DNA of 64,000 nt from the human T2T-CHM13v2.0 reference genome, Homo sapiens (GCF_009914755.1 NC_060941.1); one strand, 5' to 3'. Shown: positions 4,800 to 28,268, counted from the stretch's first letter. The notes: generated by a model not told the origin, from the letters alone. Numbers and translations: made by a program.

Positions 4800-4980
4800 G
4801 GCTGGCTAAGCATCCAGAACACTGGGGGAGCTTTAAAAACATAGATATAAATTATTGTATTTCACCCCTTACTTACTGAATCACAATCCCAGGGATGGAA
4901 GCACCCAGAGATCTGTCTTTTTAGAACTTCTCCAGCTCTCCAAGTGGTGCTGACAATCAGGCAGATTGAGAGCCAGTGCT
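4800..4980. mobile_element. MER5-like hAT-Charlie MITE
   Basis: ggggagctttaaaaa...ctgaatcacaatc...ttgagagccagtg pattern typical of MER5A/B. Confidence 0.55.
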
Positions 4981-5859
4981 TCAGGCAGCTCATCCCAGAC
5001 CTCGGGAGCAGGGGAGTCACCCAGAGCTATGTCAGACTGAAGGTTCTGGTGCATCAGGGGTGGGGAGGGTCTTGAGAGTTGGCCTTTCCAACAAGCTTCC
5101 CAGAGGGGCTGCTTTGCTGATCCTCACCAGGCTTTGAGGGTGCACAGCACTCTTCCTCTAGGTGTGTGTCCACATACCTGGCACATTTGTTGTTGCATTG
5201 CCCCAGGTATAAAGTGCAGGGTGCCCCCTCTACACCTTCAGCCCTGCTGTCTCCCCTGCTGACCCCCAAATCTCTGGGGCTTGGACTTACCTTTATAAAG
5301 GGAGCTCTCAGCTCAGGGGTGGGCCCTCCCCACTGGCCCTCTTTTCCCAAGGCCCGGCATCAGCAGGAGCTGCTCGAGCAATTCATCCCGAGGGGTCTAT
5401 GTGGTGTGAAAGGCTTAGGGAGACTGTTCTGTTTATTGTTAAGAGCCAGGAAACAAAGCCTGGAAACAAAGTCTGGTATTGCTCAATTCAGTGGTGATAA
5501 GAGACAAGGGTAGGGCAGGGTGCAGAGAAGACTCCCACACATAGCAGGACCGAGTGAGTGCCAATTCTTCCTTCTAACACTGGCACCAAGGAGAGACCGC
5601 TGTCCCTTCCCATAAAGGCAGTGGACAAATGGAAGCATCGCTTGGTGTGCCAGCTTCTTTGGGGCAGGAGAACAATAGGTGACTTGAAGCAGGGTTGGGA
5701 GCCCCATCCCAAGCACAGTGGATGCTGAAGGGGGTCCCAGGCTCCCCAGGTCCTGGGCTTCTCTTGATTCTCAGTTAAGCTTGTTGATTGCATATAGTTG
5801 AATATATATAGGCGAGGAAAAGACACAAGCCAAGAACTGGGGGCTTCAGTCAGCTCTGA

Positions 5860-6182
<323 letters not shown>

Positions 6183-6981
6183 AGGAAGAGCATTTCTAAC
6201 ATCCAAATGCAAATGTCTGCCACCCCGGGCTGCTTTCCTCTGGAAACTGCACTGCAGGGCACAGCAGGTCCCAGGTTTGCCTTTCCTAATTCCCTGCACC
6301 ACCCAGCTCCCGCCTCCCTCACTGTGCGGGATGAGAGGTCCACACAGACAGTTCCTTCTCACCTTTGAAATGGCAGTGGTGGCTGCAGCCTGGGAGCTGA
6401 GGCCATCCCAAGCGGGTGAGACCCCCACCAGGGGCCCTGGGTACCTGCCGGCCACAGGCTGTGCCATCCAGGCTGTGCACAGCCACGCCTCAGCTACCAG
6501 GATTTCCTTCCTGTGGAACTGGACCTTCCATCCAGAGAGTCTTGCAGCAGAGAGCAGAAATGGGCTTTCTCTCTGCTGGTGTAGGAAAGCCATGGCAGGA
6601 AGGCGGTACCAACAACACACAGCTGCCTGTCCCACGTGGGGTCCTGCACCTCCTGCCTCCCAGCTTTCCTGCCCCTTTACTTTGTAAGTGTGCTCTTTGA
6701 TTAAGTGTCCTGTTTTTAATTGTGTCCAAATGTTCACACTGTCTTAAGTGATGCTGGAGCCACAGCCTGGGGCCACTGCAGGTCCTTCCTCTGGAGCAAA
6801 GGGTCTTTGTCACAGTGTTTCTCTAAAAGCATATCCATCCTGAGTGACACTTATTTTAGAAACAGATAGAATTGGTGAAAAAAGGGTTGAGCATTATAAA
6901 ATGTCTCTGGATTTCAAAGAAGTTGGCCACCATCTATGGGGAATTGGGGATGAGTAACTTCTCTTTAAGTAAATGAGGACA

Positions 6982-7404
<423 letters not shown>

Positions 7405-8179
7405 TCATTACTAAGGTTCAGTGTTAAATAGAGACATTCTTCCACTGATGGCAGCCATTATGGGCCACCTGAGCTTTCTTTGGTTTTCCCTGCCATCTGC
7501 ATGGTCCTCCACTGCACTTGAATGAGGAGTCCTGAGGGTCTGAGTAAGTTGCAGGGATTGCTGTGCTGCCAGGAGTGAGTGAAAGAAGAGGCCAGAGCAG
7601 CCACCTCAGCTAAAAAGAAAGCCAGAGGAGAGGGTGGGTATTTAGGGAGCGGGGATTTTTAATTTCAAGTGAATTCTGTAATTAAGGAAATGGGGTGGTG
7701 GTGGTGGGGCTCTGGGCTGGGTGCTCTGGCACTGTCCCTAACAGCAGTCACAGTGATGGCTTTGCTCCTGTGCTGCTGTCCCTCCTCCCTCTCAGCAATA
7801 GGAAGAACATGTGTGCTTTTGATGCACTTGGTGCAGCAGGCCTGGGATGCCGCATTTCACACAAGCTTCAGGTGACCCCAGTGCTGCTGGTTCATGGACC
7901 ACGCTGTGAGTAGCAAGGTCACAAACTCCCCTGAGGGAGGGGAGTAGCTGGCTGCGTTTCTGAGAGACCCTATTACGATTGAACTACTTTGGGCCTCACT
8001 TCTTGAGAACTCAAAACAGCTGCTGGGTGTGCTGAAGCCATATTCACCCCACCACAAAGAGGACAGTCAGCACCTTTCTCCACACAATGGTAAAAAGGTT
8101 TTGTTTTCATATAAAACCTCAACAGATGAATGGGGCCACTATCAATGATTTTCAGAAAGAAAGGCTCAAATACCAACTA

Positions 8180-8463
8180 TTTTTTTTATGGAGTCTTGCT
8201 CTGTCACCCAGGCTGGAATGCAGTGGCATGATCTCCACTCACTGCAACTTCTGACTCCCAGGTTCAAGCAATCCACTCGCTTCAGCCTCCCGAGTAGCTG
8301 GGACTACAGGTGTGCGCCATGCCTGGCTAATTTTTATACTTTTAGTAGAGATGGGTTTCACCATGTTGGCCAGGCTGGTCTCGAACTGCTGAAATGAAGT
8401 GATCCACCTGCCTCTGCCTCCCAAAGTGCTGGGATTACAGGTGTGAGCCACCATACCCAGCCC
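8180..8463 (-). mobile_element. AluS-type element
   Basis: Full Alu. TSD caaataccaactatt at 8167-8181 and 8465-8479. Confidence 0.95.
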
Positions 8464-8504
8464 CCAAATACCAACTATTCTTTAAAAAAAATTATGATTA
8501 TGTT

Positions 8505-8803
8505 GGAGGCACAGTGGCTCCTTCTGTAATTTCAATACTTTGGAAGGCCAAGGCAGGCAAATTGCTTGAGCCCTGGAGTTGGAGACCAGCCTGGGCAACA
8601 TGGTAAAACCCTGTTCCTGCAAAAAGTTTTTAAAAAATTAGCCGGGCATAGTCGCATTCATCTATAGTCCCAGCTACTCAGGAAGCTGAGGTGGGAGGAT
8701 TGCTTGAGCTCTGGAAGTTTGAGGCTGCAGTGAGCTGTGATGGCACCACTGCACTCCAGCCTGGGTGACAGAGTGAGACCCTGTCTCAAAAAAAGAAAAA
8801 AAA
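8505..8803 (+). mobile_element. AluJ-type element
   Basis: Full Alu with A-tail, followed by (TA)n. Confidence 0.92.
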
Positions 8804-9454
8804 ATTTTATATATATATATGTATGTATATTATGTTGGGAGAGATGTCCCTCATAATTAAACTAGGTTAATACAGATGATTTTATTTAATAGCTGAAATG
8901 GTTCTGTTACCTGGGAGTTTGTTTTATATTTAGTTGATCTTGGAGGATCCATCATGAATCCCCCCTAGAAGTGCCCACAGTGACATGTTCCATGAGTGCT
9001 TGATGGAAAGCCATGTATTTCTAAGGCTCTGGTGGCAGGTAGCAGTTATGCGATGGCATGAGGAAAATCCATTTAGTAGAGTTGTCCAAAAGTGCAATGG
9101 CCTGGCTTGGTAAGCTGTAAATTCAGTCCCTGTGAGGGGTAGAAAGTGAGGATGGAGAAGGAAGGAATATGCCAAACAGGGGTTGAACAAGACGGGCTTC
9201 TTCCAGCTGTCAGTTTTGTGACTATGGGTACTGTCCATGTCTCCAGGATCCACCTGGGATGCCTCTGATAATGTAACCACGTACCCCCATTTTTCTTGGG
9301 CAGTTTATTCCAACAAGTGAGCTATAGTGCAGGCATTGGGCCATGTGGTATCTGTTTGACTTTCAAGGGCTTAGGTCAGCTTGGTGGAGTTCTCTGGGTC
9401 CCTCTAGGGAATCATCCAACCCAGGGATGGCCTGCAGGGTCCCACCCCACCCCT

Positions 9455-10218
9455 AAAGCACTTACATTCACACAAAATCCTAGAGCTGAATGTTCTCAGC
9501 AGGCTTATTCCTCATAGCCAAAAGCCAGAAACAAATCCAGATGTTCTTCAAGGAGCGAGTGGCAAAACAGTTGGGGTCATTGTGGAAATGAAGGGAAGCC
9601 TTTGGAGAGATGTATTGGAAGAATGAACAGGACTCAGTAATGGATTGTTTATGACGTGGGGGGGTTACAGGCTGAAGAAACTCTTTCTAGAGTCTGGAAT
9701 GGAGTCCCTAGGTGAGCTGTCACACCATTTATTTAGACAGTAAGTCTGGGTCACAGCCAAGTCCAGGAAGATGACCTAGACTATAGAGTGGGATCAGTTC
9801 TAATCTGTAATGTCTAAGAGGTATTTCAGTCTGGAAATCAGCTAGGCAGCTGTACATATAATTCTGAGTGGAGATAAAATCTGGAGGTTGTAAGAATAGA
9901 GTTAATAATTAGTGCCTTAAAAATCAATTTGGTCACCCAGAGGGCTTGGGGTTCTTTTTTTCTGGCATACCAATAAAAGAATAGCAGAGTTCAGGGGTGA
10001 GTTATGATGCACTTCAGATTTTAAATCCCAAGCAGGGGTTGTAAGCATGCTGGCAAACCTTGGGGAGGAGCATCCAGAAAGGCAGGATGAGAAGGAGAAG
10101 CATTGGCTTCAGGAGCCAGGAGCAAGATGGACCCCAGAAACAAAAAGGAGCCACTTACCTGGACTGTTCCTTTGACGTGGTAAATGGAAAGTGGCCATTA
10201 GATTTTCCATCATGGAAC
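9455..10218 (+). mobile_element. L1M 3' fragment (~9455-9575) followed by decayed L2-like sequence
   Basis: catagccaaaagccagaaacaaatccagatgttc (L1M 3' end); gaacaggactcagtaatggattg and gtggccattagatttt (L2-like). The L2-like sequence resumes after 11443. Confidence 0.5.
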
Positions 10219-11443
10219 TGTCAAAGGACAAAAGTACAACAGATTTAGTTTAAAGATCCTAATTGGCTTTATTTGCTATTCTAGAATCAGGCAACAGTTC
10301 ATTCCATAAAACAGACTGAGCGTTCCTCCGATCAGAGATGGGGAGATGGGCTTTATGGATAGAAAAGGCTGAAGCAGAAACAGAGAACAAAACACAGATT
10401 GGTTGCAAAGTTACTTTCCTTGTAAACATTAAAGCAGAGGGGAGGGACTGCCTATCATGCTGGCTAAACCTGGCCTGTTGGGGATTTGCCTGTTATCTCT
10501 CTGTGTCCTGACTTCTCAGAAAGTCAGATCAACAACTTCGTTTTGGTTTGGAAAAGTGGAACTTTAGCGCAAGGAACTCCAATCCAGTCTGGTCTTGTTA
10601 CTGAAATGAACCTGGGTCTGCTTGCCCCGTGTGGTAAAACCAAACACCCACACTGAGGTTTGCAGCAGGAGAAAGGAGGGTGTTAACTTGCAGGACACCA
10701 AGCAAGGAGAATGGGGCAGCTTACACTTCAGACCCAATCTCCTGGATGGCTTACAAGCAAGGGATTTTAAAGGCAGGGGAACAATTCAGGAAAGCAGAAG
10801 TTACAGGGAAACCATAAATCAATACAGAGGGTATACATTGTTTTGGCCCAAAAAGGTGGAAGCTCTTGAAGCAAGGGGCTTACAGGTCATAGGCGGCTTC
10901 AGGATTCTTTGATTGCAATTGGTTAAGGAAGCCAGGCTTTGTTGAAAACTTGGGGTCAGCAGAAAGGAATGTTAAGATGTGGCCTGTGGGCATGACTCCC
11001 TCCAGGCCCCTGAGAAAGAAATTTACAACAAAGAGCAGCCATCAGAGTGCAGCCCTCAGCTCCCCGACATCTGAGGTCTCTGTGATGATGGTCAGTATTT
11101 TCCATCTGACGTGGGTCCGGGTTTCTGAAAAACCATTCATGGACATATGCTAAGATGTAATCTTTAGTTTCAATAGGGGACCAAACACCTTGTGGCTCTG
11201 ACTTACTTGAGTGGCTGTTACTTGAAGCTATTATTCCCTTCTTGCTTATCAGGTGGCTCATTTACTTCTCAAGGCCAGCTAGGTACCTGGAATTTCCCTT
11301 GAAGGAAATCAAGATTTTCCTTTGTTTCCATGCTGGAGGAGGCCCAGCAGGCCTCTAATAGGGGTCCATGCTCCGTCTCAGTCTGTTGGGCCTAGTGCAG
11401 AAGCTCAGTCCAAACTAATGGCCTCCTGTAAATGTATTTTACA
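10219..11443 (-). mobile_element. ERV1-class solo LTR, split by a nested LTR
   Basis: TG...CA termini, near-TSD GAAC/GAAG, reverse poly(A) signal (tttatt) near the left end. Confidence 0.75.
10596..11380 (-). mobile_element. ERV1 (MER4-group) solo LTR nested in the previous LTR
   Basis: TG...CA termini with a perfect 4-bp TSD GTCT at 10592-10595 and 11381-11384. Confidence 0.85.
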
Positions 11444-11616
11444 GAAGTCAGCAGTGTCCACAGCAAGGGAGAGTTTCTTGAGCAACCTGCTGGGAGACCT
11501 AAGAGTGAAATAAAGAGTGAATGTCAGGTGAAAACATTGAAAAGATGAGGACTGACAAGTATTTACAGGGGGTTAACTCTGAAGTGGTTCCAATAAACTG
11601 TGATCTTGAAAAGCAG

Positions 11617-12146
11617 GTAGTGGAGGGAAAAATGGCTTCCCCTTCTAGGTTCTTTGGCTGGGCTAGGAATTAAATTGACATAAGACGGGCTAATAGGAGA
11701 ATAAAAAACTTTAATTACGTCTATATGCACAGGAGTCCCACAAAATATGGATGAGGAGAAGGGCCAGATGAATGAAGCTTAGATAGTGTCCTGAGTTACA
11801 GAAAGGAACAGGGGCTTGGGGCTTGCTGAGGATGGGCACAAGTTCTGGGAGGGTGAGGGGAGGCAATGTCTGGTGAATAAAAGGTGTCTTGTTCTGCAGA
11901 GAAAAGTCTCTGGGGTTATAGAAGTTGTCTGGAACCAGCCCTCTTCCTGATACAGATAATTCACTAATGTAGATTTTTTTTATAGTTATAAATTTCTTTT
12001 ACAAAAGGGCAGCTTTTCAGAGCTACTCCTGTGTCTGCAATTTCTTAGAATAACAAGATCAAAATTTGCCTAAGAAGTATATTTTGTGTTCACATATCTG
12101 GTTTTGTATTGTCATATTTTGGGGTGGTGTGTCCTGAGCCCCACCA
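11617..12146 (-). mobile_element. MER34/MER39-like ERV1 LTR
   Basis: Right end reverse-complements to tggtggggctcaggacacaccaccccaaaatatgac, a MER34-family start. Near-TSD GCAG/GCAA. Confidence 0.75.
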
Positions 12147-12211
12147 GCAAGGGCCATGTTATAGGAATATAATTTTTAATTGACTTTTTAGAGTTGTTTT
12201 GAATTCACAGC

Positions 12212-12713
12212 TGAAGGGGCTTAGAGTATACCATCCCAAAATATGCCACTCTGACATAAAGATTATTTTGAGCTGAAGACAACTGAGACCAAGTAGACAC
12301 AGGACAAACTCTCTGCCCTGTCCCCATCTACCAGAAGGGCAGGATGGCTCTTACCAGCCCAGAGGTGGCACCAGAAAAATCAACATCACAAGCACGCCAA
12401 ATCAACCTTATCTGTCAGCTTCTGCCATATATCTACCTTCCCACAACTTGTTATCCACAGAAGCTCAAGGTCCCCTTCCTTTGTCTTTCCACTTCTCTAC
12501 AAATACATTGCTCTCTCATTAGGGTGCTAATAAGCCCAAGTTCTAACCGCCTTTTTGAGTTATTATCACTGAGCTCTCCCATGTGTATTTGCGATGCATG
12601 AATTAATAAATGTGTTGTTTTCTCTTGTTAACCTGGCTTTCATTGGTCTAAATTTGTGGGGCCAAGGCACTAAACCTAAGATGGGTGGAGGAAAGATTTT
12701 TTCTAAACCTATA
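12212..12713 (+). mobile_element. MER34-like ERV1 LTR
   Basis: Starts tgaaggggcttagagtataccatcccaaaatatgccact; AATAAA at ~12605; TSD CAGC at 12208-12211 and 12714-12717. Confidence 0.85.
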
Positions 12714-12927
12714 CAGCAAAATTGAGCTGAGCGTGCAGAGAACTCTCATATGAACCCCTCACCGGCCCACACATGTGCACACACACACACCCACACACGC
12801 ACAGCCTGCCCTACTGTCCATGTCCCACATCAGTGGGGCACATTTGTTACTACAGCTAAACCCACACCAACACATCATTTTCACCCAAAGTCTGTGGTTC
12901 ACATTAGGGTCACTCTTGGTGTTGTAT

Positions 12928-13721
12928 TGTCAGTGAAAAGAGCCAAACTCTGTAAAATATTTGAAGAGATTTATTCTGAGCCAAATATGAGTGACCCAAG
13001 GTATAGTCTCAAGAGGCCCTGAGAACATGTGACCAAAGCGGTTGTTTTACAGTTTGGTTTTATACCTTTTAAGGAGACATGAGACATTAATCAGTACATG
13101 TGAGATGTACATTGATTCAGTCCAGAAAGGTGGGACAGCTCGAAGGGGGTCAATGGGAGGAAGGCTTCCAGGTCATAGGTGGATTCAAAGATTTTCTGAT
13201 TGGCAATTGATTGAAAGAGTTATTATCTAAAAACCTGCAATCAATAGAAAGGAATATCTGGGTCAAGATAAGGGGTTGTGGAGACCAAGGTTCTTACCAT
13301 GTAGATGAAGTCTCATGGGGGTCACCCTTAGAGACAATAGATGGCCAATGTTTCCTATTCAGACTTTTAAAAGGTGCTAGACTTTCAGCTAATCTCTAGA
13401 GGATTGGGACAGCCTGGAAGGGAAAAGAGCTAGTTATGGTAATAGAGATTCTTTACAGGTGCAAATTTTCCCCACAAGAGACAGCTTTGCAGGGCCATTT
13501 CAAAATATGCAAAAAAAAATCCTATTTTGGGGTAAAATATTTTTATTTCCTTCTTTATCTGTCATATGATGTTATACGAGAGTCAGGTGGGAAAGTAAGC
13601 TGTGTTATATATAAGGTTAAATAAAGCCCATCTGTTGAGATGTCAGTTTCTAGGGTATGACTCCCCAGGCCCCTTAGATAGGAATTTGGGCAAGAGAGAA
13701 AAAATGTCAGTTTAGTCCTCA
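12928..13721 (-). mobile_element. MER4-family (MER4D/E-like) LTR
   Basis: tgtcagtgaaaagagccaaactctgtaaaatatttgaagagatttattctg ... tttagtcctca; near-TSD GTAT/GTAC. Confidence 0.85.
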
Positions 13722-13994
13722 GTACATTCTTTGGGTTTGAACAGATGTCTAATGCCATATCCACCACTGTCATATCATACAGAGTAGTTTCACAGTCTGG
13801 CAAATCCCCTGTGCTCTGCCTGTTCATCCCTCTCTCCCCCAACCCCTGCCAACCACTGCTCTTTTTACTGTCTCCATGGTTTTGCCTTTTCCAGAATGTG
13901 ACAGAGTTGGAATCTTACAGTATGCAGCCTTTTCAGATCAGTTTCTTTCAGTTAGTAATATGCATTTAAGGTTCTTTCATGCAGCTCAATAATG

Positions 13995-14900
13995 TTTGGC
14001 AGAGACTCAAAGGCAGGGAGAGGAATGGGAAATCTGCGGTGGAAAAGGGGAAGAGGAGTCCTGATGGGGTTGCCAGCCACCAGAGGCGGCTGCTAGTGAA
14101 GTGGCCTCATTGTCTGGGGTGACACCCAATGTTCATTGTCTCACAGCCACAGAGATCAAGGGCATGGACACACAAAGGGTGAGGTTAAGAGTGGAAATTT
14201 AATACGTGAAAGAAAGAGAATAGCTCTCTGCTACAGAGAGGGGTCCCGGAAAAATAGGTCGCTGATGCACAGTGCAATGCAAAGATTTTTATAGATGAGC
14301 TAGTGGGGAGCAGTGTCTGATCTACATCGGGTGTGAAAAAACAGGACCAGGTGTGCCATCTGCATAGGGCACGAATCTCTGGACGCCCCCACACCAATCT
14401 TCTATTTATTACGCAGGTGAGTAGCTACTCCATGTTGCTTATTTCTTTCTTACTGTGCATGTGTTAACAACAACAAAAAAAAAAAAAATTAGGGAAGGTG
14501 AACCCCCCATGGTGGACATGCCTGGCCCCAGGTAGTCCTTTTTATCAGTGTGGCTGCAGGCCTCCCCCCAGGCAAGCTTCCAGCTTCCTTAACTATGTTT
14601 GCAGCTCCATCTTTCAGGCTGCTCTTTGTTAGAAAGAAATGATTTCTTGGGCTGTTTTTTGTCAGAAGTTCTGCCAAGGACTTTTTTGCCCTATCTGCCT
14701 AAATAATTTATTTCCATCTCCTGTATCCAGTCAGGGGATCCTACCTGACTGGTAAGAGGGTGCCTATTTGGTTCTCCCTGTTGGTCCTAGGTTCGAAGCA
14801 AGGGCAAAAAGGAGGGAAGCCGTCAGTGCAGTCCTGACCATTAGGGTTGCTGTATGCAGTTTCCAGCTGGTTACTTCACAGACTGTGGGTCAGAGTGTCA
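13995..14900 (-). mobile_element. ERV1 LTR (same family as 23708-24260), split by a nested LTR
   Basis: 14780-14827 is the reverse-complement counterpart of ~23970-24018 (cagcttccctaatttttgtcccggcttccaacttagaaccaac). Confidence 0.6.
14097..14727 (-). mobile_element. LTR27/28-like ERV1 LTR
   Basis: Right end reverse-complements to gatacaggagatggaaataaattatttaggcagatag, typical of this group. Confidence 0.7.
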
Positions 14901-15000
14901 CCAGGCTCTCGGGTGGATTTTTTAAATCCCACGGACTGAAACCCTTCTTTATTATCTCCAGTCACTTGAACATCTTTCTTTGATTGACAGTTTATTCAGT

Positions 15001-15295
15001 GTTATTAAAAAAAAAAGCTGCTACTATTACTACTACTACTACTACAATTACTATTTATAATAATGGTAATAATTATAGTAATGATGAATCCCAGCAAGGA
15101 CCAAATAATTATAATTACTGATTTAATATTTATACATAAATATTTATTAAAATATATAATCTATATATTACATATATTTATACCATGACATTTATAGTAT
15201 CTACATAATTACATATTATTTGTGTATTTATGACTATTTATATTTATAAATTACATAATAATAAGAAGAATATTATTACTATGACTACTATAAGC
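15001..15295. repeat. AT-rich low-complexity block, (TAC)n/(TAA)n/(TA)n mosaic
   Basis: Seen directly. Related blocks at 15770-15932 and 21510-21592. Confidence 0.9.
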
Positions 15296-15299
15296 CTCA

Positions 15300-17200
15300 G
15301 GACTCCCCCCGCCCCCCACCATAACAGAATATACCCCTTTAACCATCCAGCCACCTAATCCCACGTTGCCCCCGCTGGTCGAGCTTGCTATATATAAAGG
15401 CGGCTGCCAACTGTTGCAAGACAACTAGCTAAAAAGCCTGCCGAACAGATCGGGATCGCGGGTGGGCAGGTAGGACGCCAGGCCTCGTCCGGGTCCACCT
15501 CAGGTCACATTCCCACCTCGGGGCACCCTGGCAGGCATGAGTGGAACCGTGAGATCCCTGGTAGCCAAAAGAAGCCTTGGAAAATTTTGGGGGGAGCGCC
15601 CTGGGCCAGGGACAGCTGCCGGGCAGGGGACAGACTCCCCAGCGCCTCCCGGGCCAGCTGCCCACCCAGAGTGGACTTCAAAATTCACCGGGGTCAGCCT
15701 GCCTCAGCCTCCCCAGGGGCATGTAGAAATTTCTGCGGACCGAAAGCCCCTCCTGCGTCCTCTTCGGAACTATAACTGTTTATATCTAATTGCTATTTAT
15801 GTAGATTGATTATTTATAAAGTATAATTTATACTTCTACAAATTTATATTATTTATATTCATATAGTTTGTAAATGTAAATAAATTATTTGTTTATAATA
15901 CTTGCTTATAAGAATTACCATTGCTGTATAAACCTCAGGTTCCACCATCCCCCTGCCCCTACCCTCCCCTTCGCACCTTGCCACGTCCTTCTCCCCTCGC
16001 CTTGGCCCCTTCTCCTCTCCCAAATTCTAGTTGCCCATCTGCTTGGTTGGGCTGCTGATCGATCTGATCAACTTTCTGAGGCCACATCAAAACTGCAGAA
16101 ATGAGGCTGATCGACCCAGCAGCTCTAACAAAGATCATCCATCGGACATCTGGTCGCCTCTCTATTTTGGAGCCAGAGGCTGTACGCTCTTCCCCGGTGG
16201 GGAGGGTGGGGCCCCAAAGTCCAACCACAAGATCCCATTTTGCAGGCCGCGGCTAAATCCACTGCGCCTTCCCCGTTTTTTCTCGAACTGCCCAAGCCAG
16301 ACTCCACCTCCAAGACAAGACTCGGAAAAAGGTGTGAAGCTCAAGTCGGATGACCACGACCCACGCGTGGCCACGGACGGGCCCATGTTATTCTTCGCAG
16401 TCCTCCTGTAATGGCCGGGCGGGTCCTCGCCTCCAGGGCGGGGCTTGGAGATAATGGGTGTAATGGAAGGCCTGAGGACCCGGCCCCACGCCAGTCGGAG
16501 TCCGGGCGGAGTAACCCATCCCCCGTTCACACTCTCGGAAGGCCCGTCGATTCCTGCGTGTACTAGTCGACCCGCTCAGGCCACAGCACTCCGAGCTCAA
16601 TAGTGCGCCTCCAACGCTGACCCGCAGGTTTAATCTCCGACGAAAGGACGAAGAGTACACCCGGCAAAGCCGGGCTCATCCTGCCAGTGCTGCCAGTCCC
16701 CTTGAACTCTGCACGGCGCCCTGTGGCCAAATCCCCTTTCTTGCCGGCTTCGCCAGAGCGCCGGAGAGAAAACCTTAACAGTGCAGCCAGGTGGCGCCCA
16801 ACAGCCGGCGCAAGCAGCCGCGGATCGGATCGGCATAGCCAGCGGGCGAGGCCTCTCCTAGTCCCTGACCACCTGGGATCGCGTTTCTTGGCCTGGGCCG
16901 GGTGGAGGAGCTCCCAGTTGGCACGGCCTGGAATGACGCGACCCCGCAGCCGAAGGGGACTTGAAAATTTTTCCTAACCACCGTTCCGCTCCGAGTTACT
17001 GCTACCTGCTAGGACAGACCTCCCACGCGGCTCCGGGCCTGGCGATCTTCCGCGGGAACCGGGAACGTTTCCGGAGATCCCCGCAGGCCGGCGCCCTGCC
17101 TCGGCTTCCCAGTGCAGCGGGGTCGCGGGCTCCCCGAGGATTCCAAAGTTTTGCGGGGCGCCTGCGGCGGGAGGGACCCTGAAGTTGAAACTGTGAAAGG
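15300..17200. promoter_or_regulatory. CpG island, candidate promoter (interrupted by the AT block at 15770-15932)
   Basis: The most CpG-dense stretch in an otherwise CpG-depleted window; GC-box gggcgggg at ~16436; not recognisably TE-derived. Confidence 0.85.
15389..15475 (+). promoter_or_regulatory. TATA box, putative short first exon and 5' splice donor of a non-coding transcript
   Basis: TATATATAAA at 15389-15398 in GC-rich context; MYB-type CAACTG at 15408-15413; CAG|GTAGGA donor with GT at 15470-15471. The TSS (~15420) is inferred. Confidence 0.5.
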
Positions 17201-17384
17201 CAGAACGTGGGTGAATCGCTTTTATTCTGTCTTTTCGGAGTGGGAAAGCCTTTCTAAAGCATAAAATAAACCCAGAAGCCATCAAGGAAATGATTGATCA
17301 GCTTGACAACATAAAGTTTCACAAGCAACGTCAAAAGATAACAAATGAGTGTGGGGATCGCTTATGCATAAGATAAGAATATTG

Positions 17385-17965
17385 ATTTCATTCACAATAG
17401 CCAAGATACGGAAGCAAGCTAAGCATCTACCAGTGGGTGAACGGAAAAAGAAAATGTGATGTATGTACATCAGGGGGTACTATCCCGCCTTTGAATAAAA
17501 GGAAATCCTGCTATTGGCGACAACGTGGATGAACGTGGAGGCCATTGTACTAAGCAAAGTAAGCCAGGCACAGAAACAAATACCACTTGGTCTCTCCTGT
17601 ATGTGGAATCTGAAAATAGTTGAACTCATAGAAACGGAGAGTAGAACTGTGGCTACCTGAGGCCGGGGGAAGGGCAGGAGGGAGGAGATGTTGTTCAAAG
17701 GGTACAAGGATTCAGTTAGACAAGAGGAATATGTTTTAGGGATCCACATGACACGGTGACTGTAGTTAATGCATTTTATATGTCAAAATCCCCAAAATAG
17801 TAAATTTTAAATATTCTCACCACAAAAAATAAATGTGTTGGTGATGGATGTCTTAATTAGCTTAAAGTAATTATTCCACCAATGTATACATATATCAAAA
17901 CATCACATTGTATCCCATAAATGTATACAATTATGATTTGTCAATTAAAAATAAACTTTAAAAAA
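17385..17965 (+). mobile_element. L1MA 3' end
   Basis: ttcacaatagccaagatacggaagcaa...tggatgaacgtggaggccattgtactaagc...tttgtcaattaaaaataaa. Confidence 0.85.
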
Positions 17966-18399
17966 TCTTTTTAAAAAGATTTCAGCATTATTTACTATAA
18001 TAACAAAAAAACTGGGGTGGGGGTAATAGCCATTGATTAAGAGGGGTCAGGTTAAATAAACTCCAGTACATCCACACCATACACTGTGTGAATTTGTTTT
18101 GTTTGTTTTAGATGAGATAAATGTTGATGATGAAATGTTAAATGAATAATTTAAAACAAGTATTAAGTTACCTCTATTTCAACACATTAAATAGCTAGTA
18201 AAGACTGTGTGGTGTGGACAGAGGGATATGATCTACAGAACCGAAAAGAGACCAAAACAAATGCACCCAGCTGGTTTTTGACAAGCATGCAAAAGCACCT
18301 TGTGGCAGGAAAGGTAGCCTTTCCATCAAATGGGAGTAGGGCAATTGCACATCACAGGCAGCAAACAAGCAGGCAAACCAAAACCCTTGACCTAGACAC

Positions 18400-19230
18400 T
18401 GTCAACTTTAGAATCCCAGGCCCCCACCAAATGAATGGACCCCCTCTTGGCCAAGGGGACCTCAGGAAAATCTTAAAAGTTTAGTTCTAGTCTGCCTGGG
18501 GTGGGAGGTCAAACATGCCTCATTATACCCCCTGCCTTTTGGGGTTTAGACCAGCATTAATGTTAACATAGAGATCAGAAGACTGACAGAACAGACTCTG
18601 TGGCAATAAAATACCAAGTTATAAACAGGACCTAAGGCCATGCCAGGCAAGGGTTAAGTCACTAACACTACGCCTAAAGAATAAACTGTGTTCCAAGGAC
18701 CACAAGGCTTTTGTTTTTCTCTGGCAGCTAAACAACCACTGGCCTCAAGATAGACAAGATTAAAACAATTTCCAGCTCCACCACCCACTGACTTACTAAA
18801 CCCCTGCTCTACCAGCCATAACTTCCTGATAAGACCACCAACTATGGATTGTCTTTGGCTGGTTTACAGAGGCTGCACACTTGTGTGACTTCATGCCCTG
18901 AAAAGACCTGTTGACATATAGGACCTAACTGTAATACATTTAAATGTTAAGTCTCCACCCCAAAGTGAACATGGATCATATGCTACATGCATGTCTGTTC
19001 AATATGCATGTGCTAGGACCACCTTCATGAATATTCATAGCTCCTCCTATAACCTGTTGAATATGTATGTTTAGCCAACCTGCCCAGCATAAAGCTCCTA
19101 CCCTAACCCCTCCTCCTTCAAAGTGCCGTTTCTGGTCCCTTGGCTGAGATGGCCACCTTAAAGGCTGTAATCCTTATGAGAAATAAAGTCTCCTCATGTT
19201 TCTAAATGGATAAATTGTGGGGGTTTTACC
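18400..19230 (+). mobile_element. MER4-family LTR
   Basis: gaatggacccccctcttggccaagggg...catgcctcattataccc; AATAAA at ~19182. Confidence 0.8.
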
Positions 19231-19419
19231 CTCACACCTCATGCAAACATTGACTCCAAATGGATCACATATTTCAATGTAAAATGTAAAACTATAAAAT
19301 TTTAGGAAAAAAAATCTTAGAGAAAATTGGGATTTAGGCTAAAAAATGAGATTTTATACTTGACATCAAAAGCATGATTCATAAATAGAGATGGGTAAAT
19401 TGGAAGTCATCAAAATTAA

Positions 19420-19740
<321 letters not shown>

Positions 19741-19889
19741 TGAAATGTCCTTTTAAGAGGAGGAAAACAAAGTATAGATCAGAAGAATATATTTACAAAC
19801 CATATATTCTACAGGAATGTGTAAAAAAAAAAACTCAAAACGCAACGGTATTTTTCTTCAAAATCCAATTACAAAATTGATGAAAGACA

Positions 19890-20486
19890 TGTTAAAGTAT
19901 GCCCCCTGCAGAAAGACAAAATGACTCCCAGGAGACTAACTGAGTTGCTCAAAGTTAAAATGGAACCAGGCGGCTGTAGCTGGGTGACAGAGACTTCATG
20001 TACTCTGTGTTCTTAGAAAGATGTTATAAAAGTATCACAAGACCTCCCTTCCACAACCAAACCAAACCAGTTCCTGTTGTCAGTGTCAAGATAACTGTAT
20101 CCGGAGCACCACTTCCCTGGACCCCTGACAGCCATTTATAAGAAATTTCTGACAGTCTTCTGCTTAAGGCTTAAAGAACAACAAGTCAGAACTCCCCTGC
20201 CCTGACTAATCAGGACTCAACTGCATCAATCAGGGTTCACCTGGATCGACTAATCAGGATTCAGCTACATCCACCGATCAGGACAGCATGAGTTTCAGTC
20301 CTTCATTTACATAAATGAAAGTAGTTGGAAACCTGGACAGAAACTTTTACCATAGAGCCCAAACCCTTTCTTAGTTTTCTAGAACTTACTTTCCTTTTAC
20401 ACTGAAGGCTGCAACTTCCCCATTTACAAACTGTTCACTGAAATAAAGTCACTTTCCACATTCCTTTTCAGAAAACTTAGCTCACA
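19890..20486 (+). mobile_element. ERV1 solo LTR (MER72/LTR47-like)
   Basis: TG...CA termini, perfect TSD GACA at 19886-19889 and 20487-20490, AATAAA at ~20442. Confidence 0.82.
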
Positions 20487-20769
20487 GACACGAACTAGCA
20501 TTTCACTGAGCAGGACGTACAGATGGCAGGTCGGCACATGAGAAGACGTTAGCCTTTTGTGGGAGTGTAAATTAAAATGACAGTGAGACGTCATGACACA
20601 TCCATCAAATGCCTTCAACAAGATACAGGAACAGCATCAAATGCAGGTGAGGCTGTGGAGGAACGGGCTTTCTCACACATTGCTGGTGGTAAGGTAATAT
20701 TGTACTGCCACTCTGGAAAACAGTGTGGCAGTTTCAAAAAAGAAAACAGCAACAACAAAAACATGCAAG

Positions 20770-21286
20770 TGAAGCGTGGCAGAATATGCCACCCCAAAAT
20801 ATGCCACTTTAGCATAAGGGTTATTTTGAGCTAAAGGCACTTGAAAAACAGCAGACACAAGGAAGATGCCCTGACCTCCCCTTTTTCTTCCTGAAAGTAG
20901 GAGGTGAATCTCCCATGGGAAAGGTGCCCTCCCTGTACCAGGAGGAAGGAAGCAATTCTTACCACCAGAGGCAGGGAGTTGGGGCCGAGGGGAATCTGTA
21001 CAAACAAATCTCGTTAAACTAACCCTCATCTGCCTCATTACTTCTCCACGATGAACTGCCCTATCCCAGACTCCATTGTCTTCAGGTTTTCACAACTTAC
21101 TCTTTGTCCAACCTAGTATATAAGTGTTCAGGCCTAACTGCTTCTTCGGATCTCTTTTTCCTACAGGGTTCCATTCACATGTGCAAATCTGTGTGCTTTT
21201 CTCCTGTTAATGTGTTTTATGTCCACTTACCTCTTAGGCCCAGCCAGAAACACTAACAGTAGAGGTAAAGTTTTGCTTCCCCTGCA
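20770..21286 (+). mobile_element. MER34-like LTR
   Basis: tgaagcgtggcagaatatgccaccccaaaatatgccacttt start; near-TSD CAAG/TAAG. Confidence 0.85.
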
Positions 21287-23707
21287 TAAGGACCATGTAA
21301 CCCAGCAACCAAACCCCTGGGCATTCACCCCAGAGACAGGGGAACTTGCTGTGCTTGAAGGGTTGATTCAGTGCCTCTGGGGCCGAGGACTCCCCCTGAC
21401 CTCTGACCCTGGGCTACAGCAGGAATTAGAATATTTCCCAGCCTGAAACTCCTCTTTCCTCAACTTCAGTCAACCAGACACCCTTTGTGGATGGAAAAAT
21501 CTCATTCAGTGTTTTTATAACAATAACAAATAATAATGGTAATCATTACAATAATGATGAACAACAGCAACAATAACTATTATTATTATTAACCTTGGGG
21601 GATGAAAGGGTAGGGTACAGACCTCCACAATGCTCCTGGAGAATGACCACCTACTCCTGCTGGGTCCCAGGGTGGGCTGGGGTCAGAGTCCCAGGTTTGC
21701 ACGTGCAACATGCTCTGTGAAGGCAAGGGGTGAGCAGCAGGAGGAAAGGGAAATTACCCTAACAGGGTGTGGCAGACCAGTGAGGACCCTGGGAGGAGAA
21801 ACAGGGGAGGGATGTGCAGGGAGAGGGACCCAGGTCGGGCACCCGCTGCCTGGTCAGTGAGCTGCCAAAGCTTCCTCCACAAGTGCTGGACTCCTTGTCC
21901 ATGCCTGCCTACCCGGCCCCCGGCCAGCAAACCGCGGGCACCAGCTCATGGTGCACAGAAATATGCACTCCAGATGAATCGCACACCTCGATGTTAAACG
22001 TAAAAGAGAAAACCTCAGTAGAGAATGCTAAGCGTTTGTGTCCCCTGGAGAAATGTTCTTCAGTGTGGCACAGCAGAAACCCAGGTGGTCAGCAGCCCCA
22101 TCTGGTGTGGTGCCAGGGAAGAGCGCTGACTTGTTAGAGCAGCCTGGAGTTCTGCCTGCTGCGATCCATCACGGCGGCCTCTGCATCTGCAGGGTAAGGC
22201 CTTCAGGTTTAGCACTGCAAACCCAGGCATTTGGAGTCTGTTGGGCCAGTATCGCTGCTCAGGTGCAGATGGGCCAGCTGACTTCACCTGAATTGTAGCT
22301 GCCAGCCTTCGTGAGAAGTGGGGGCGCTTCTGGGACCGGCCGGCTGGGGCATCGGGTGCACCATTTCTACTTGAACACACGTCCCCCAGGCACTTGGGGC
22401 CCCCAACACGGAAAGCGGCCATGAGGTGCTGGGCCTCCCTCTGGCTAGGGGGAGCAAGGAGACAGCGAGTGTGGCAGCCAGGACTGGGCCTCAGTGCTCC
22501 CAGCGGGTGGGGGTGTGACGGGTGTAGTCAGGCCAGGTCTGTGGGGAAGGTTTGTAGGACTGGGGCTGGGGGCTAGCCTTGAGTCCTGAGCCACCCACCA
22601 GTGGCAAACTGCAGTTTTGCAGAGGTTAAGCCTCCGGCACCTCTCTAAGGCAGCTAGGCTGGGACAGGACTGGCAACAGCAGCACCAACACCTGTGTGTC
22701 CTGAGCAGGGGGTACTGCACTCACCGGCTCCAACCAGCAACGTCATTAACGTTTTTCTCCACTGTGAGGATCATGCAAACCCTACCAGTTTGATTCCAAT
22801 GTTTTTTGAAAAACATACTTGAACACAGAGCTGGGAGTTTTGACAGGTAGGCTTTAGGAGCTTTGTCACCACCACCAGGACACAGGGATCTCCCGGCAAG
22901 GTGCTCAGGGACCTGTGGGGCCCAGAGGCCAGGGGGCTGGGAGGGCCTGGAGTGGCCAGCAGGGAGGCTGCAGAGCCATGCCTCCTCCTCCCCTAATCAC
23001 CCCAGCAGACCTTCCTCTGAGAAGCAGCAGACCAGGGAGGGGGCATGTGTCATTCTCTGCCAGTCACTTTCTTCTCCACTCCACCACCTATGCATTTAAC
23101 ACAGAAAGTGCATGAGGCCACGCTGTCTGCAGTCAGCCACCGCCACTGCTCCATCCAAGGACTCTGCACTGGAGGCCAGCAGGATGCCCTGGGCTTCCTG
23201 CAGGGGCTAAGCCATGCATGGGTCCCAGTGCAGTCAAGGCCCCAAGGCAGTGAGAAAGGTTCAGCCTGGAGGTGGGTGGTTAGGCATAGGTCCTCGAGAG
23301 TCCCTTTAAGGTCTCAATCCTAGTATCGCGTGGGGTCCCATTGCTGTGGTTCAAATTTCTCAGTCTTTCCCTTGATTTTGCTGGTTTTGCCTCTTTACAG
23401 ATTATTTCCTTTTGGGTTTTCTCTACTTCTAAAGAATTTTTTGTTGTAATTATTTCAGACACTGCCTGAGAATTGAGATTTTATGGTTTTCAAGAGTTAC
23501 GGTTTTCAATACATCTTCATGTTCCCTCATCCTATTCTCCTAGAAGTTGGCTCTGTGCTGTTAGCTGCCTCCACACATGTGCCCTTCATTTGTTAGGACT
23601 CAAGTGTCACATCTGAAATGGGGGCTAGCAAGGTAGATCTGCAAGACCTATCCCTTGGTTGAAGTAGCAAGCCCTGGAGTGGCCCAGCAGGTGCTGATAA
23701 GCTGACC

Positions 23708-24260
23708 TGTGAGAGACTGAATATACAATGACAGTGGCTAGACTACATAAAAAATCAAACTCTGAGCCATAATCTGCAGCAACCAGCCCCAAAGCCAGCC
23801 CGAGATCTGCAGCCACAGCCCAGGAAGCCAGCCCGTTAGAAGTCAGATGTGCAGGAAGCCAGCCCTCTAGAAGTCAGACGTGCAGGAAGCCAGCCCGCTA
23901 TCTCCAGTCAATCCAGGGAGCTTAACACCGCCCTGTAACAATCAGCCCAAGACAGTCAGAACTTGACTAATAACAGCTTCCCTAATTTTTGTCCCGGCTT
24001 CCAACTTAGAACCAACCAGAAAAAGTGAAATCTACTGCCCTAACCGACCACACAGGAGGCCCCATTTCTGGTCGGCCACCCCAGTTTCCCCAAGCCAACA
24101 GCCTCCACTCGGAGTGCACCTGGAGCCTCCCCTTTTTCCACTGTGAACCTTTCCCATCCTCTGCCTGCCTGGAAATTTCTACCAAAATGCAACTGGCGAT
24201 GGCTGACTCCCTTGCTGGGGCCTTTGTGTCTCTCATTTGAGTGGTCTTTGCTTATCTCCA
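23708..24260 (+). mobile_element. ERV1-class LTR with an internal 31-bp tandem repeat
   Basis: TG start; ctgcagcaaccagccc/caggaagccagccc reiterations; related to the reverse LTR at 14.0-14.9 kb. Confidence 0.7.
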
Positions 24261-24730
24261 TGCTGCTTGCTATGCTACTACGGATGGGCATTTCCTGCCC
24301 ATCCACGAAGATTTCACGTGCGTGCCTGGGGTGGCAGCATACCCAGGTGCATTTCTCCTGCCTCCTCCTTCTCTCTTTATCCCGCAGTCTTCCTCCTCAC
24401 CCAGCTAGCCACAGGTGTCCACATGGAGCACAGTCTGAGGAGAGAGCAGGGTCAAACACAGCCAGGTTCTAGGTGGAGCTGAATGGGGTTTGACAGGTGC
24501 CAGGTGCTCCCCCAGATGGATCTTTACATCATAAAAACGATTTTGTGCTTGAAGATGTGGCTTCAGATCCACCAAGCATAAAGTCACCACCTGAAATTAG
24601 AAAGAAAACATCCAATAAATAGGCCTTCTTCACTCCAGCAACCCTCTCCCCATGTGCCTTCTGAAGCTCCTGCAGCAAGCCTGCAGATGGGTTCAGAAAG
24701 TGTTTCCAAGAGGAGCACCACACAGCTCTA

Positions 24731-24745
24731 ACAGACAGACAGACA

Positions 24746-24778
<33 letters not shown>
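24731..24778. repeat. (ACAG)n(AC)n compound microsatellite
   Basis: Seen directly. Confidence 0.95.
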
Positions 24779-24779
<1 letters not shown>

Positions 24780-25339
24780 GAGTCAACATGAGGGTAAGAA
24801 TGAGGAGAGTGATGGCTGCAGTGTCTGAGAGAATTTAGTCTCAAGGATTAAGGGAAGGCTCCCCAGGCGAGTGGGAAAGGTGAGCAGTGTTCGGTCTCTC
24901 AGAGGCGTGGATGGAAGTGTCGTCCAGGCAGAAGACAAATGCACAAGGCTTGAAGCCGGAGCAAACAGCTTCCATATGCAGGAGTGAAAATGGCAGGCAC
25001 TTCTATGGCAAATCCAAGAGTGAGGCAGGAGGGTTCAGGGCCTAGCATGCCAGGCCAGTGACTTTGTGGAACCAGCAAACCAAGCTAGGCAAAGTGTGGC
25101 ATGTTACTTCCTTATAATATTTTTAATTAGAATCATAATATTTTCTCTTTAATGCAAAGAATAAATAAATTCTTAAATAATACCTAGCCCAAGGGCCACT
25201 ATCCAGAGACACTCAAGCTGCCAGAATTTTTAATGTATCTTTCAAGAAATATTTTCTATATAAACAGAAGCCTGAGATGTATATGCCATTTTTTGTGGTC
25301 TCTTCCACCAAAACTTCCTCAAATGTATTAAGAGCACAA

Positions 25340-25792
25340 CTCTTGAAAACATGTTCCCACTGAAACGTGCACACAAACGTTCTTAGCAGCATCATTCATT
25401 ATAGCCAAGAAGAGGAAACAACCCAAATGTTCACTGACTGATGAATAAACAAAACCTGCTCCATCCACACAATGCGACATTCACACGTGAGGAATGCCGC
25501 ACCGTGGTGAACACCAGAAACAGCAAGTTCAGTGAAAGAAGCCCGTCATAAATAACTCCATTCATGGAAGTGTCCAGAATAGGCAAATTCGTAGAAATAG
25601 AAAGTAGATGAGCGGTTGCTTAGGTCTGGAAGGGATGGGGAGCATCCTGTCAGGATGCCGAAAATGTTCTGCAATTGACTGGATAATGGCTTCACGGCTC
25701 TGTGAATATGCTACCAACCGCTGAATTGTACACTTCAGTGGTGAATTGTTTGAAATGCAAATGACGTCTCACTAAAGCTCTTATTAAGAAAT
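25340..25792 (+). mobile_element. L1MB-like 3' end
   Basis: gcagcatcattcattatagccaagaagaggaaacaacccaaatgttc...gaattgtacacttcagtggtgaattg. Confidence 0.8.
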
Positions 25793-26341
25793 ACATGAGT
25801 TGATGGCAGATGGCTATCAGGATTATGAGGGTGACATCTCAGGGGAGGAGCTGTGTGTGTGGAGGTGCTAGAACTGCACAGGACATCAGCCATTAAAGGG
25901 TCCTCTGATCTAAAAATAGGAATTGTGATCTGAGTAATTAATGAGACACTGGCTGTCCTGAATTTGCAGCTAGTAAAAAAGTTGTGAGTCAGGAACAAGC
26001 TTGGTTTTTCCATAACAGGATTTTGGCTGCTGTATAAGAGAATTGGCTGGAAGAAGCACCATTCACAAGCACTTACTGTCAAGAAGCAAGAAGCACAAAG
26101 CACTTATCATCAAGTAAGAAGGACAGGACTCCCAGTAAGGGGGTAGCAGAGAGATGTTGGCAACTGGACAGATGCACAATACACTTGGGAGGCGACACTG
26201 ACAGAACATGTCTCTGGGGACATGCAAGAAGAATTAGGTAAAAGCATAGGTTATATCAGGGTATGTCAAAAACAGTGACAGGAGCAAATAAATAATCTAA
26301 ATTGAGGAATGCTGATTTGAGAATTCTCAGACATGGATTAC

Positions 26342-26943: not shown

Positions 26944-26988
26944 GGATGGATCAGATTGTTTTTCTTTTGTGATTACAAATAAGGCTGA

Positions 26989-28262: not shown

Positions 28263-28268
28263 GAAACA

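What the first reader, a model, noticed from the sequence alone, without database searches (positions are those of the whole stretch)
14910..17165. The CpG island is a cryptic, heavily diverged tandem triplication of a ~0.6-0.8 kb promoter-like module
Seen directly: several motifs recur in the same order. (a) CGGAC[T/C]GAAA(G)CCC[T/C]TC precedes each AT block (14932, 15736). (b) TATAA[G/A]CCTCAGG plus a C-rich tract ends each AT block (15289-15301, 15927-15939). (c) AATCCCACGTTGCCCCCGCTGGTCGAGCTTGCT (15357-15389) resembles AATTCTAGTTGCCCATCTGCTTGGTTGGGCTGCT (16023-16056), with a weaker match at ~16729. (d) A double-GATC motif occurs at 15436-15457, 16051-16069 and 16814-16831. (e) 15452-15655 is colinear with 16874-17039: GGGATCGCG, GGCCT.G.CCGGGT, GG.ATGA, TTG(G)AAAATTTT, then GGACAGAC..CCCA..GCG.CTCC.GGGCC about 50 bp later in both. 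Only copy 1 keeps the TATA box. Inference: an old multiplied promoter or small transcription unit whose CpGs were protected from decay. None of the repeat calls here explains it.
Basis: partly seen in the sequence, partly recalled or inferred. Interest (0 to 1): 0.8.

Follow-up and report, generated by a model that had tools for sequence, protein, structure and literature searches.

The report
Orphan CpG island with one old internal duplication
This is a real, unannotated CpG island near the chromosome 17 centromere that exists in two copies in the genome and carries one very old internal two-copy repeat, not the three-copy repeat proposed; it is an ordinary kind of feature.

Summary
The CpG island is real: 15290-17200 has GC 0.58 and CpG o/e 0.74, peaking at 0.8-0.95 over 16.2-17.2 kb. 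The proposed tandem triplication is only partly there.

One diverged direct repeat is solid. R1 (15403-15713) matches R2 (16783-17110), with 197 of 296 aligned columns identical. The score is z = 10.4, and 0 of 1000 shuffles reach it. Reciprocal nhmmer gives E = 3e-5 and 8e-4.

The supposed middle copy (15935-16782) matches nothing. The two AT blocks are generic low-complexity DNA. Short motifs a, c and d are at chance level. The flank before each AT block may be related, and it has a clear relative at 21288-21594.

The whole region lies inside an inverted segmental duplication of at least 54 kb, matching chr17:21.42-21.475 Mb at about 93% identity. Both copies keep the island: 59% of CpG sites are shared, against 29% in the rest of the duplication. 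CpG retention also spills into an adjoining transposon fragment.

Best reading: a long-lived, germline-hypomethylated orphan CpG island, probably an unannotated promoter or regulatory element. Its internal structure comes from old local duplications. Interest is low to moderate.

The parts
2444..56774 (.). Inverted segmental duplication of chr17:21420001-21475044, about 93% identity. The high-coordinate end in the window (56774) is set by how much I fetched; the low-coordinate end was tested only as far as chr17:21480000.
   Evidence: blastn of the window against fetched loci L013-L016, L020 and L021
14627..14790 (+). 3' end of a dispersed LTR-like repeat; a full copy of the same family lies at 20766-21287
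   Evidence: alignment to 21125-21287; the family has 1055 first-look candidates genome-wide, and matches end by query position 524
14790..14990 (+).
   Evidence: SW z = 6.1, 0 of 200 shuffles reach it; nhmmer E = 5.4e-13 for 14860-15330 against 21361-21586; no other copy apart from the SD paralogue
14990..15290 (.). AT block 1: low-complexity AT-rich DNA including a (CTA)n run at 15021-15053
   Evidence: it matches more than 100 AT-rich places genome-wide at 67-83% identity
15389..15402 (+). TATA-box-like GCTATATATAAAGG, identical in the paralogue
   Evidence: function not tested
15403..15713 (+). R1, first arm of the diverged direct repeat. CpG is eroding in this copy: over 15290-15760, o/e is 0.51 here against 0.70 in the paralogue.
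15552..15613 (+). 62 bp present here and absent from the paralogue. It aligns to R2, so it is most simply a deletion in the paralogue.
15712..15767 (+). Flank before AT block 2 (motif a, second occurrence); possibly homologous to 14863-14961 and to about 21415-21470
   Evidence: SW z = 4.7, 0 of 200; profile hit E = 0.021, on the paralogue copy only
15770..15930 (.). AT block 2, low-complexity AT-rich DNA
15935..16782 (.).
   Evidence: only one genomic paralogue
16783..17110 (+). R2, second arm of the diverged direct repeat, in the most CpG-dense part of the island (o/e 0.9). A CTCF-like string lies at 16784-16798.
17390..17980 (+). Fragment of a high-copy dispersed repeat; by my own reading it is an old L1 3' end. 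CpGs are retained over 17390-17700.
   Evidence: 6755 first-look candidates; 8 CpGs here and 9 in the paralogue, against 0-1 in four other copies
20766..21594 (+). 'B' module: full LTR-like repeat (20766-21287), a flank homologous to 14790-14990, and a short AT-rich run

Best explanation
The feature is an orphan CpG island: a stretch of about 1.9-2.4 kb (15290 to about 17700) kept CpG-rich for a very long time. The most likely reason is that it is unmethylated in the germline, as promoters and other factor-bound regulatory elements are.

It predates an inverted segmental duplication of at least 54 kb on 17p11, and both duplicates still carry it.

Its internal structure is not a triplicated promoter module. 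It contains:
- one ancient direct duplication of a unit of about 310 bp (R1/R2, start-to-start spacing 1380 bp);
- two AT-rich low-complexity blocks, probably grown by slippage;
- a pre-AT flank that belongs to a separate old local duplication, whose other copy is at 21288-21594 and which began inside an LTR-like repeat.

Shown: the CpG statistics, the segmental duplication, R1/R2 homology, slower CpG loss than in the flanks, and CpG retention spilling into a transposon fragment.

Inferred: germline hypomethylation as the cause, and promoter or regulatory activity. The TSS is most likely in the CpG-densest part, about 16.8-17.2 kb, and/or at the conserved TATA box at 15391.
For: - Island statistics.
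- Two-copy status in the genome.
- Segmental duplication.
- Both copies keep the island, with 117 and 123 CpGs, of which 88 are shared.
- CpG sites shared: 59% in the island against 29% in the other 31.2 kb of the duplication. TG/CA-type differences affect 36 of 149 CpG sites in the island against 280 of 498 outside it (p = 4e-12).
- CpG retention is tied to position, not to sequence origin. The adjoining dispersed-repeat fragment at 17390-17700 has o/e 0.51 and 0.54 in the two copies, against 0-0.13 in 4 of 4 other genomic copies examined. Those other copies carry TG or CA at 6 of the 9 CpG positions.
- R1/R2 homology. In addition, at 18 of 23 R1 sites that differ between the paralogues, one variant equals R2.
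- No coding or RNA-family signal: 0 of 31 ORFs hit Pfam, no Rfam family reaches its gathering score in the island (one sub-threshold match, CRISPR-DR40, E 0.93, in AT block 1), no tRNA.
- The hub's gene table lists no gene in the window.
Against: - No methylation, CAGE or expression data could be consulted, so hypomethylation and promoter activity are inferred only.
- The island is more diverged between paralogues than its surroundings (91.9% against 95.2% substitution identity), so there is no sign of purifying selection on the sequence itself.
- The window copy has lost more CpGs than the paralogue: 23 against 13 in the island (p = 0.13), and 11 against 3 of the TG/CA type in 15290-15760. 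This copy may be losing its island status.
An origin of R from an old transposon below about 70% identity is therefore not excluded.
Confidence: 0.6

Rival explanations
1. One reading: a true tandem triplication of a module of about 0.7 kb, made of pre-AT flank, AT block, TATAA/C-rich end and R unit. On this view the middle R copy, and the AT part of the third copy, have diverged or been overwritten beyond recognition.
For: The R1-R2 spacing of 1380 bp is about twice the AT1-AT2 offset of 638-658 bp. The pre-AT flanks give z = 4.7, and an independent profile puts its best non-self hit exactly at the predicted pre-AT2 position (E = 0.021). nhmmer with the AT1 module hits 15842-15963 at E = 0.0018, with high compositional bias.
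Against: Copies made together should be about equally diverged. Yet R1-R2 is easily detected, while the predicted middle R (about 16020-16400) scores z = 0.38 and -1.67 against them and gets no hit at E <= 10 with a four-sequence profile. Segment 16400-16782 has no relative. The AT-AT similarity is weaker than similarity to unrelated AT-rich loci. Motifs a, c and d are at chance level.
Confidence: 0.15
2. R1 and R2 are remnants of a repeated mobile element, either terminal repeats of one old element or two insertions of the same family. The island would then be exapted or passively GC-rich transposon sequence.
For: Two direct repeats of about 310 bp flank about 1.07 kb, which resembles an LTR-internal-LTR layout. 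An LTR-like repeat fragment lies just upstream. The genome DNA search cannot see relatives at about 66% identity; it did not report R1-R2 itself.
Against: The GC-rich parts have only themselves and one SD paralogue in the genome. No ORF hits Pfam. A CpG o/e of 0.9 is unlike an old decayed element. Repeat termini and target-site duplications are not recognisable in the sequence.
Confidence: 0.1
3. The region is a non-functional GC/CpG-rich patch with no promoter or regulatory role. It would be kept by biased gene conversion or by passively escaping methylation in a duplication-rich pericentromeric region. The R1/R2 repeat is then an incidental old duplication.
For: No gene is annotated (hub table). 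The island evolves faster than its flanks. This copy is eroding. The rest of the duplication shows asymmetric CpG loss, 178 against 102, so local methylation or mutation regimes differ between the two copies.
Against: CpG retention is sharply local. A GC-rich block 4.5 kb away (21600-23400, GC 0.56-0.62) has o/e of 0.04-0.5. Retention has lasted long enough to preserve CpGs in an old repeat fragment that decayed in 4 of 4 other copies examined. It has been maintained independently in both copies since the duplication.
Confidence: 0.15

Closest known systems
Orphan CpG islands (Illingworth et al. 2010, PMC2944787; I saw only the search listing and the start of the abstract)
   Same: A CpG-rich, GC-rich stretch away from any annotated promoter, with long-term CpG retention, which is the sequence footprint expected of a non-methylated island.
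   Different: The unmethylated state and promoter activity that define that class experimentally were not tested here. This island lies in a pericentromeric segmental duplication and has an ancient internal two-copy repeat.
Human intrachromosomal segmental duplications (at least 1 kb and at least 90% identity; definition recalled)
   Same: At least 54 kb at about 93% identity, inverted, about 1.7 Mb apart on the same chromosome arm.
   Different: The duplication explains why there are two islands in the genome. It does not explain the structure inside the island.
CpG-rich macrosatellite arrays such as D4Z4 or DXZ4 (recalled)
   Same: CpG-rich DNA containing repeated kilobase-scale units with promoter-like features.
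   Different: Those are many adjacent copies of high identity. Here there are two non-adjacent copies of about 310 bp at 56-67% identity, and TRF finds no array.

Membership tests
CpG island (sequence criteria as recalled: >200 bp, GC >0.5, CpG o/e >0.6) | Length, GC content and CpG observed/expected ratio | tested here: met
   15290-17200: GC 0.58, o/e 0.74, 117 CpGs. 16400-17200: GC 0.63-0.66, o/e 0.80-0.91. 15290-15760 alone is borderline in this copy (o/e 0.51).
Orphan CpG island / unannotated promoter | No annotated gene start at the island | tested here: met
   The hub's RefSeq table lists no gene in the window. There is no Pfam hit, no Rfam family above its gathering score in the island, and no tRNA.
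Orphan CpG island / unannotated promoter | Unmethylated in germline or somatic tissue | not testable with these tools
   Indirect support only: slower CpG decay than in the flanks and CpG retention in the adjoining repeat fragment.
Orphan CpG island / unannotated promoter | Transcription initiation (CAGE, RNA polymerase II, H3K4me3) | not testable with these tools
   Only a conserved TATA-like box at 15389-15402. GC boxes were read by eye.
Tandem triplication / tandem repeat array | Three head-to-tail copies with similarity above composition-matched chance | tested here: not met
   Only R1 and R2 are significant. The middle segment matches neither. TRF finds no long-period array.
Segmental duplication | At least 1 kb at 90% identity or more elsewhere in the genome | tested here: met
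   Window 2444-56774 against chr17:21420001-21475044, with pieces at 92.9-93.8% identity.
Known satellite or transposon family | Many dispersed or arrayed copies in the genome | tested here: not met
   The GC-rich parts have only self plus one paralogue. Only the flanking pieces 14627-14790 and 17390-17980 are high-copy repeats. Relatives below about 70% identity would be missed, and Dfam is not available.
LTR retroelement with R1/R2 as its LTRs | Terminal repeats with defined ends, a target-site duplication, and internal coding remnants | tested here: inconclusive
   No Pfam hit in the internal ORFs. Termini and target-site duplication cannot be read at this divergence.

The most novel reading that the evidence does not exclude
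R is an ancient promoter-proximal or insulator-like unit that was duplicated 1.38 kb apart, long before the 17p11 segmental duplication. Both arms have stayed inside a germline-hypomethylated domain for tens of millions of years. On this reading they mark an unannotated, possibly divergent, non-coding RNA promoter, now present as two paralogous copies next to the chromosome 17 centromere.
Probability: 0.15. Interest if true: 0.4.

Novelty: new member of a known kind. Interest (0 to 1): 0.22.

Why it matters
It marks a probably functional, unannotated regulatory element in a duplication-rich pericentromeric region of chromosome 17 that reference annotation leaves empty.

The two copies differ by about 8%, so reads can be assigned to one copy or the other. 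That gives a natural experiment on how a CpG island fares after duplication toward a centromere; this copy appears to be eroding faster.

As a class, orphan CpG islands and old internal duplications are well known, so the general significance is modest.

Tried and rejected
- **Strict-scoring alignment.** Smith-Waterman at +1/-1 gave only marginal z values (2.4-3.8) for the GC parts. Lenient scoring was needed to see R1/R2.
- **Whole-segment shuffles.** These inflate z because they homogenise the AT and GC blocks (z = 18 for copy 1 against copy 2). I replaced them with block shuffles.
- **AT1 against AT2.** z = 4.1-5.5 against shuffles. I rejected this as specific evidence because unrelated AT-rich loci score higher and the reverse-complement score is comparable to the shuffles.
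- **Island against the GC-rich block at 21595-23400.** Not significant (z = -0.01 to 2.0).
- **15935-16400 against 16400-16720.** z = 3.3 under one scoring scheme (3 of 200 shuffles reach it) but 1.3 under the other. Not accepted, given 12 comparisons.
- **Rfam, tRNA and Pfam.** No Rfam family reaches its gathering score in the island, and there is no tRNA and no Pfam hit.
- **KCNJ12-like pseudogene idea for the GC-rich blocks.** Rejected. The three Kir-type coding exons on chr17 lie elsewhere, and no ORF here hits Pfam.
- **ERV-internal origin of the pre-AT flank.** Not supported. Neither flank has other genomic copies, and none of the scored LTR copies continues into it.
- **CTCF consensus (recalled).** 12 matches in the window against 7.6 expected, so no enrichment. 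The site at 16784-16798 remains only a lead.
- **Literature.** Searches for FLJ36000 and for T2T/CpG-island/segmental-duplication terms gave no paper that I could tie to this locus from the listings. I opened none of them.

Full report
**Observation**

The region is CpG-rich. In 400-bp windows, CpG observed/expected rises from 0.1-0.3 before 15.0 kb to 0.5-0.65 at 15.0-16.2 kb and 0.8-0.95 at 16.2-17.4 kb. It falls to 0-0.3 after 17.6 kb. GC reaches 0.55-0.66.

Two AT-rich blocks interrupt the island, at about 14990-15290 and about 15770-15930. Over 15290-17200 there are 117 CpGs, with GC 0.58 and o/e 0.74.

**Genomic context**

A DNA search of the window's own assembly shows that the GC-rich parts occur exactly twice: here, and at chr17:21460300-21462541 on the opposite strand, at 88-95% identity.

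I fetched 60 kb around that place and ran BLAST against the window. Window 2444-56774 is colinear, in inverted orientation, with chr17:21420001-21475044, in seven pieces of 92.9-93.8% identity. The far end is set by how much I fetched.

The island is therefore internal to a segmental duplication of at least 54 kb.

Three Kir2-type coding exons lie at chr17:21364405, 21651789 and 22667029. None is in this block.

**Test of the triplication**

I used Smith-Waterman scores against dinucleotide-preserving shuffles done within 25-100-bp blocks, so that local composition is kept. I also used reverse-complement controls, real-sequence controls, and nhmmer profiles.

*What holds.* 15403-15713 (R1) aligns with 16783-17110 (R2), with 197 matches, 99 mismatches and 47 gapped bases.
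- The score is 241, against a shuffle mean of 91-93 (sd 14). That gives z = 10.4, with 0 of 1000 shuffles reaching it at both block sizes. The reverse complement scores 114.
- Among GC-rich tiles of the window on both strands, R2 is R1's best partner (229, with the next unrelated tile at 135, among 82 comparisons). The converse holds too (241, next at 134, among 76 comparisons).
- Among 3306 tile pairs over 12-24 kb, the R1/R2 pair ranks sixth. It comes behind two LTR tile pairs, two AT1-AT2 tile pairs and one tile pair of the 14.8-kb/21.2-kb relationship described below.
- A profile built only from R1 and its paralogue finds R2 at E = 3.3e-5, and R2's paralogue at 2.5e-6. The reverse search finds R1 at 8.4e-4, and R1's paralogue at 1.9e-5. 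The search space was 208 kb.
- In a four-way MAFFT alignment, the arms are 56-60% identical.
- At 23 R1 positions where the two paralogues differ and R2 is invariant, one of the two variants equals R2 in 18 cases.
- The 62 bp at 15552-15613 that the paralogue lacks aligns to R2. It is therefore most simply a deletion in the paralogue.

*What does not hold.*
- The proposed middle copy (15935-16400) scores z = 0.38 against the first GC part and z = -1.67 against the third.
- 16400-16782 has no relative.
- A profile from all four R sequences finds nothing else at E below 1.7 in the window or in 40 kb of paralogue.
- The AT blocks resemble each other at 52.5 bits. Each resembles unrelated AT-rich low-complexity loci on chromosomes 6, 8, 9, 10 and 20 more strongly (61-101 bits). 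Block 1 alone matched more than 100 such places genome-wide.
- I scanned the whole window with each short motif region. The second occurrences of motifs a and c are not among the ten best matches. Motif d's is second, behind an unrelated site. Motif b's is first, by a single point.

*What remains suggestive.*
- The approximately 100 bp before each AT block align: 14863-14961 with 15666-15767, at 68% identity, z = 4.7, with 0 of 200 shuffles reaching the score.
- A profile built without that second flank, from 14800-15000 and 21300-21510 and their paralogues, has its best non-self hit on the paralogue's equivalent of window 15712-15767. The hit is in the right orientation and register but reaches only E = 0.021, and the window copy itself is not hit.
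- nhmmer with 14860-15330 reaches 15842-15963 at E = 0.0018, with strong compositional bias.

**A second, separate old duplication**

14627-15090 aligns with 21125-21594 at 65.7% identity. The non-AT flank alone gives z = 6.1, and nhmmer gives E = 5.4e-13.

The first roughly 165 bp of that alignment are the 3' end of a dispersed LTR-like repeat. A full copy of this repeat is at 20766-21287. The family has 1055 first-look candidates, and matches end by query position 524.

The following roughly 300 bp are unique to these places and their paralogues.

The GC-rich DNA after the 21.6-kb copy is CpG-poor (o/e 0.04-0.5). It is not detectably related to the island.

**CpG protection**

I compared the two segmental-duplication copies.
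- The island has 88 shared CpG sites out of a union of 149 (59%). The other 31.2 kb of aligned duplication has 146 of 498 (29%). Fisher p = 8e-11.
- TG/CA-type differences affect 36 of 149 sites in the island against 280 of 498 outside it (p = 4e-12).
- Overall substitution identity is nevertheless lower in the island (91.9% against 95.2%). CpGs are spared, but the sequence is not conserved.

The repeat fragment abutting the island is a high-copy dispersed repeat (17390-17980; 6755 first-look candidates). By my own reading it is an old L1 3' end.
- Over 17390-17700 it keeps 8 CpGs here and 9 in the paralogue.
- Four other genomic copies keep 1, 1, 1 and 0.
- At 6 of the 9 window CpG positions, those other copies carry TG or CA.

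Protection therefore depends on position rather than on sequence origin. It is older than the segmental duplication. It stops near 17.7 kb on the right, and at AT block 1 on the left (o/e is 0.16 over 14400-14990).

The window copy has lost somewhat more CpGs than its paralogue. The counts are 23 against 13 in the island (p = 0.13), and 178 against 102 in the rest of the duplication (p = 7e-6). The loss is most marked in 15290-15760.

**What it is**

No ORF of 80 or more codons in the island or in the 21.6-24.5-kb block hits Pfam (0 of 31). No Rfam family reaches its gathering score in the island, and there is no tRNA. The hub table lists no gene.

A TATA-like box at 15389-15402 is identical in both copies.

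A string close to the recalled CTCF consensus opens R2 at 16784-16798. Such strings are not enriched in the window (12 found, 7.6 expected).

The most economical reading is an orphan CpG island, a class described by Illingworth et al. (PMC2944787; I saw only the listing and the start of the abstract). On this reading it has been germline-hypomethylated for a long time, because it is, or was, a promoter or another factor-bound element. It was copied along with at least 54 kb of surrounding sequence. Its internal pattern comes from one ancient two-copy duplication plus low-complexity AT expansion.

By recalled primate substitution rates, about 4.8% substitution divergence places the segmental duplication roughly 20-25 million years ago. 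The R1/R2 duplication is several-fold older. Both dates are rough inferences.

**Limits**

No methylation or expression data, no Dfam, and no non-human genomes were available. Function is therefore inferred, and a transposon origin of R at below about 70% identity cannot be excluded.

**Verdict**

There is a duplication rather than a triplication. CpG protection is real. Promoter activity is untested. This is a new member of a known kind, of low to moderate interest.

Noticed in passing
G000 chr17:22667029-22667451 (-), outside the window: A third Kir2.2-type (Pfam IRK) coding exon with a 549-codon open frame and no internal stop, besides those at chr17:21364405 and 21651789.
   Followed up: no
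window 2444-56774 outside the island: CpG loss since the segmental duplication is asymmetric. There are 178 TG/CA-type losses in the window copy against 102 in the chr17:21.4-Mb copy (p = 7e-6). The centromere-proximal copy seems to decay faster.
   Followed up: partly
window 21600-23400: A 1.8-kb GC-rich block (GC 0.56-0.62) that is CpG-poor (o/e 0.04-0.5). It follows the second copy of the pre-AT module, shows no detectable similarity to the island, and has no Pfam hit.
   Followed up: partly
window 23772-23900: Two overlapping short tandem arrays with 33-bp and 31-bp units, 1.9 and 2.6 copies, at 84-91% matches.
   Followed up: no
window 12208-12732 and 20766-21287: Two full copies of the same dispersed LTR-like repeat family in direct orientation, about 65% identical to each other. 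I could not name the family without Dfam.
   Followed up: partly
window 15103-15263: AT block 1 belongs to a genome-wide class of AT-rich low-complexity tracts. More than 100 places on many chromosomes match at 67-83% identity, often on both strands.
   Followed up: partly
window 15698-15720: A short string resembling part of an Alu. A profile of 15640-15775 weakly hits the Alu copies of the window at E = 0.16-10. This is probably chance or a tiny fragment.
   Followed up: no
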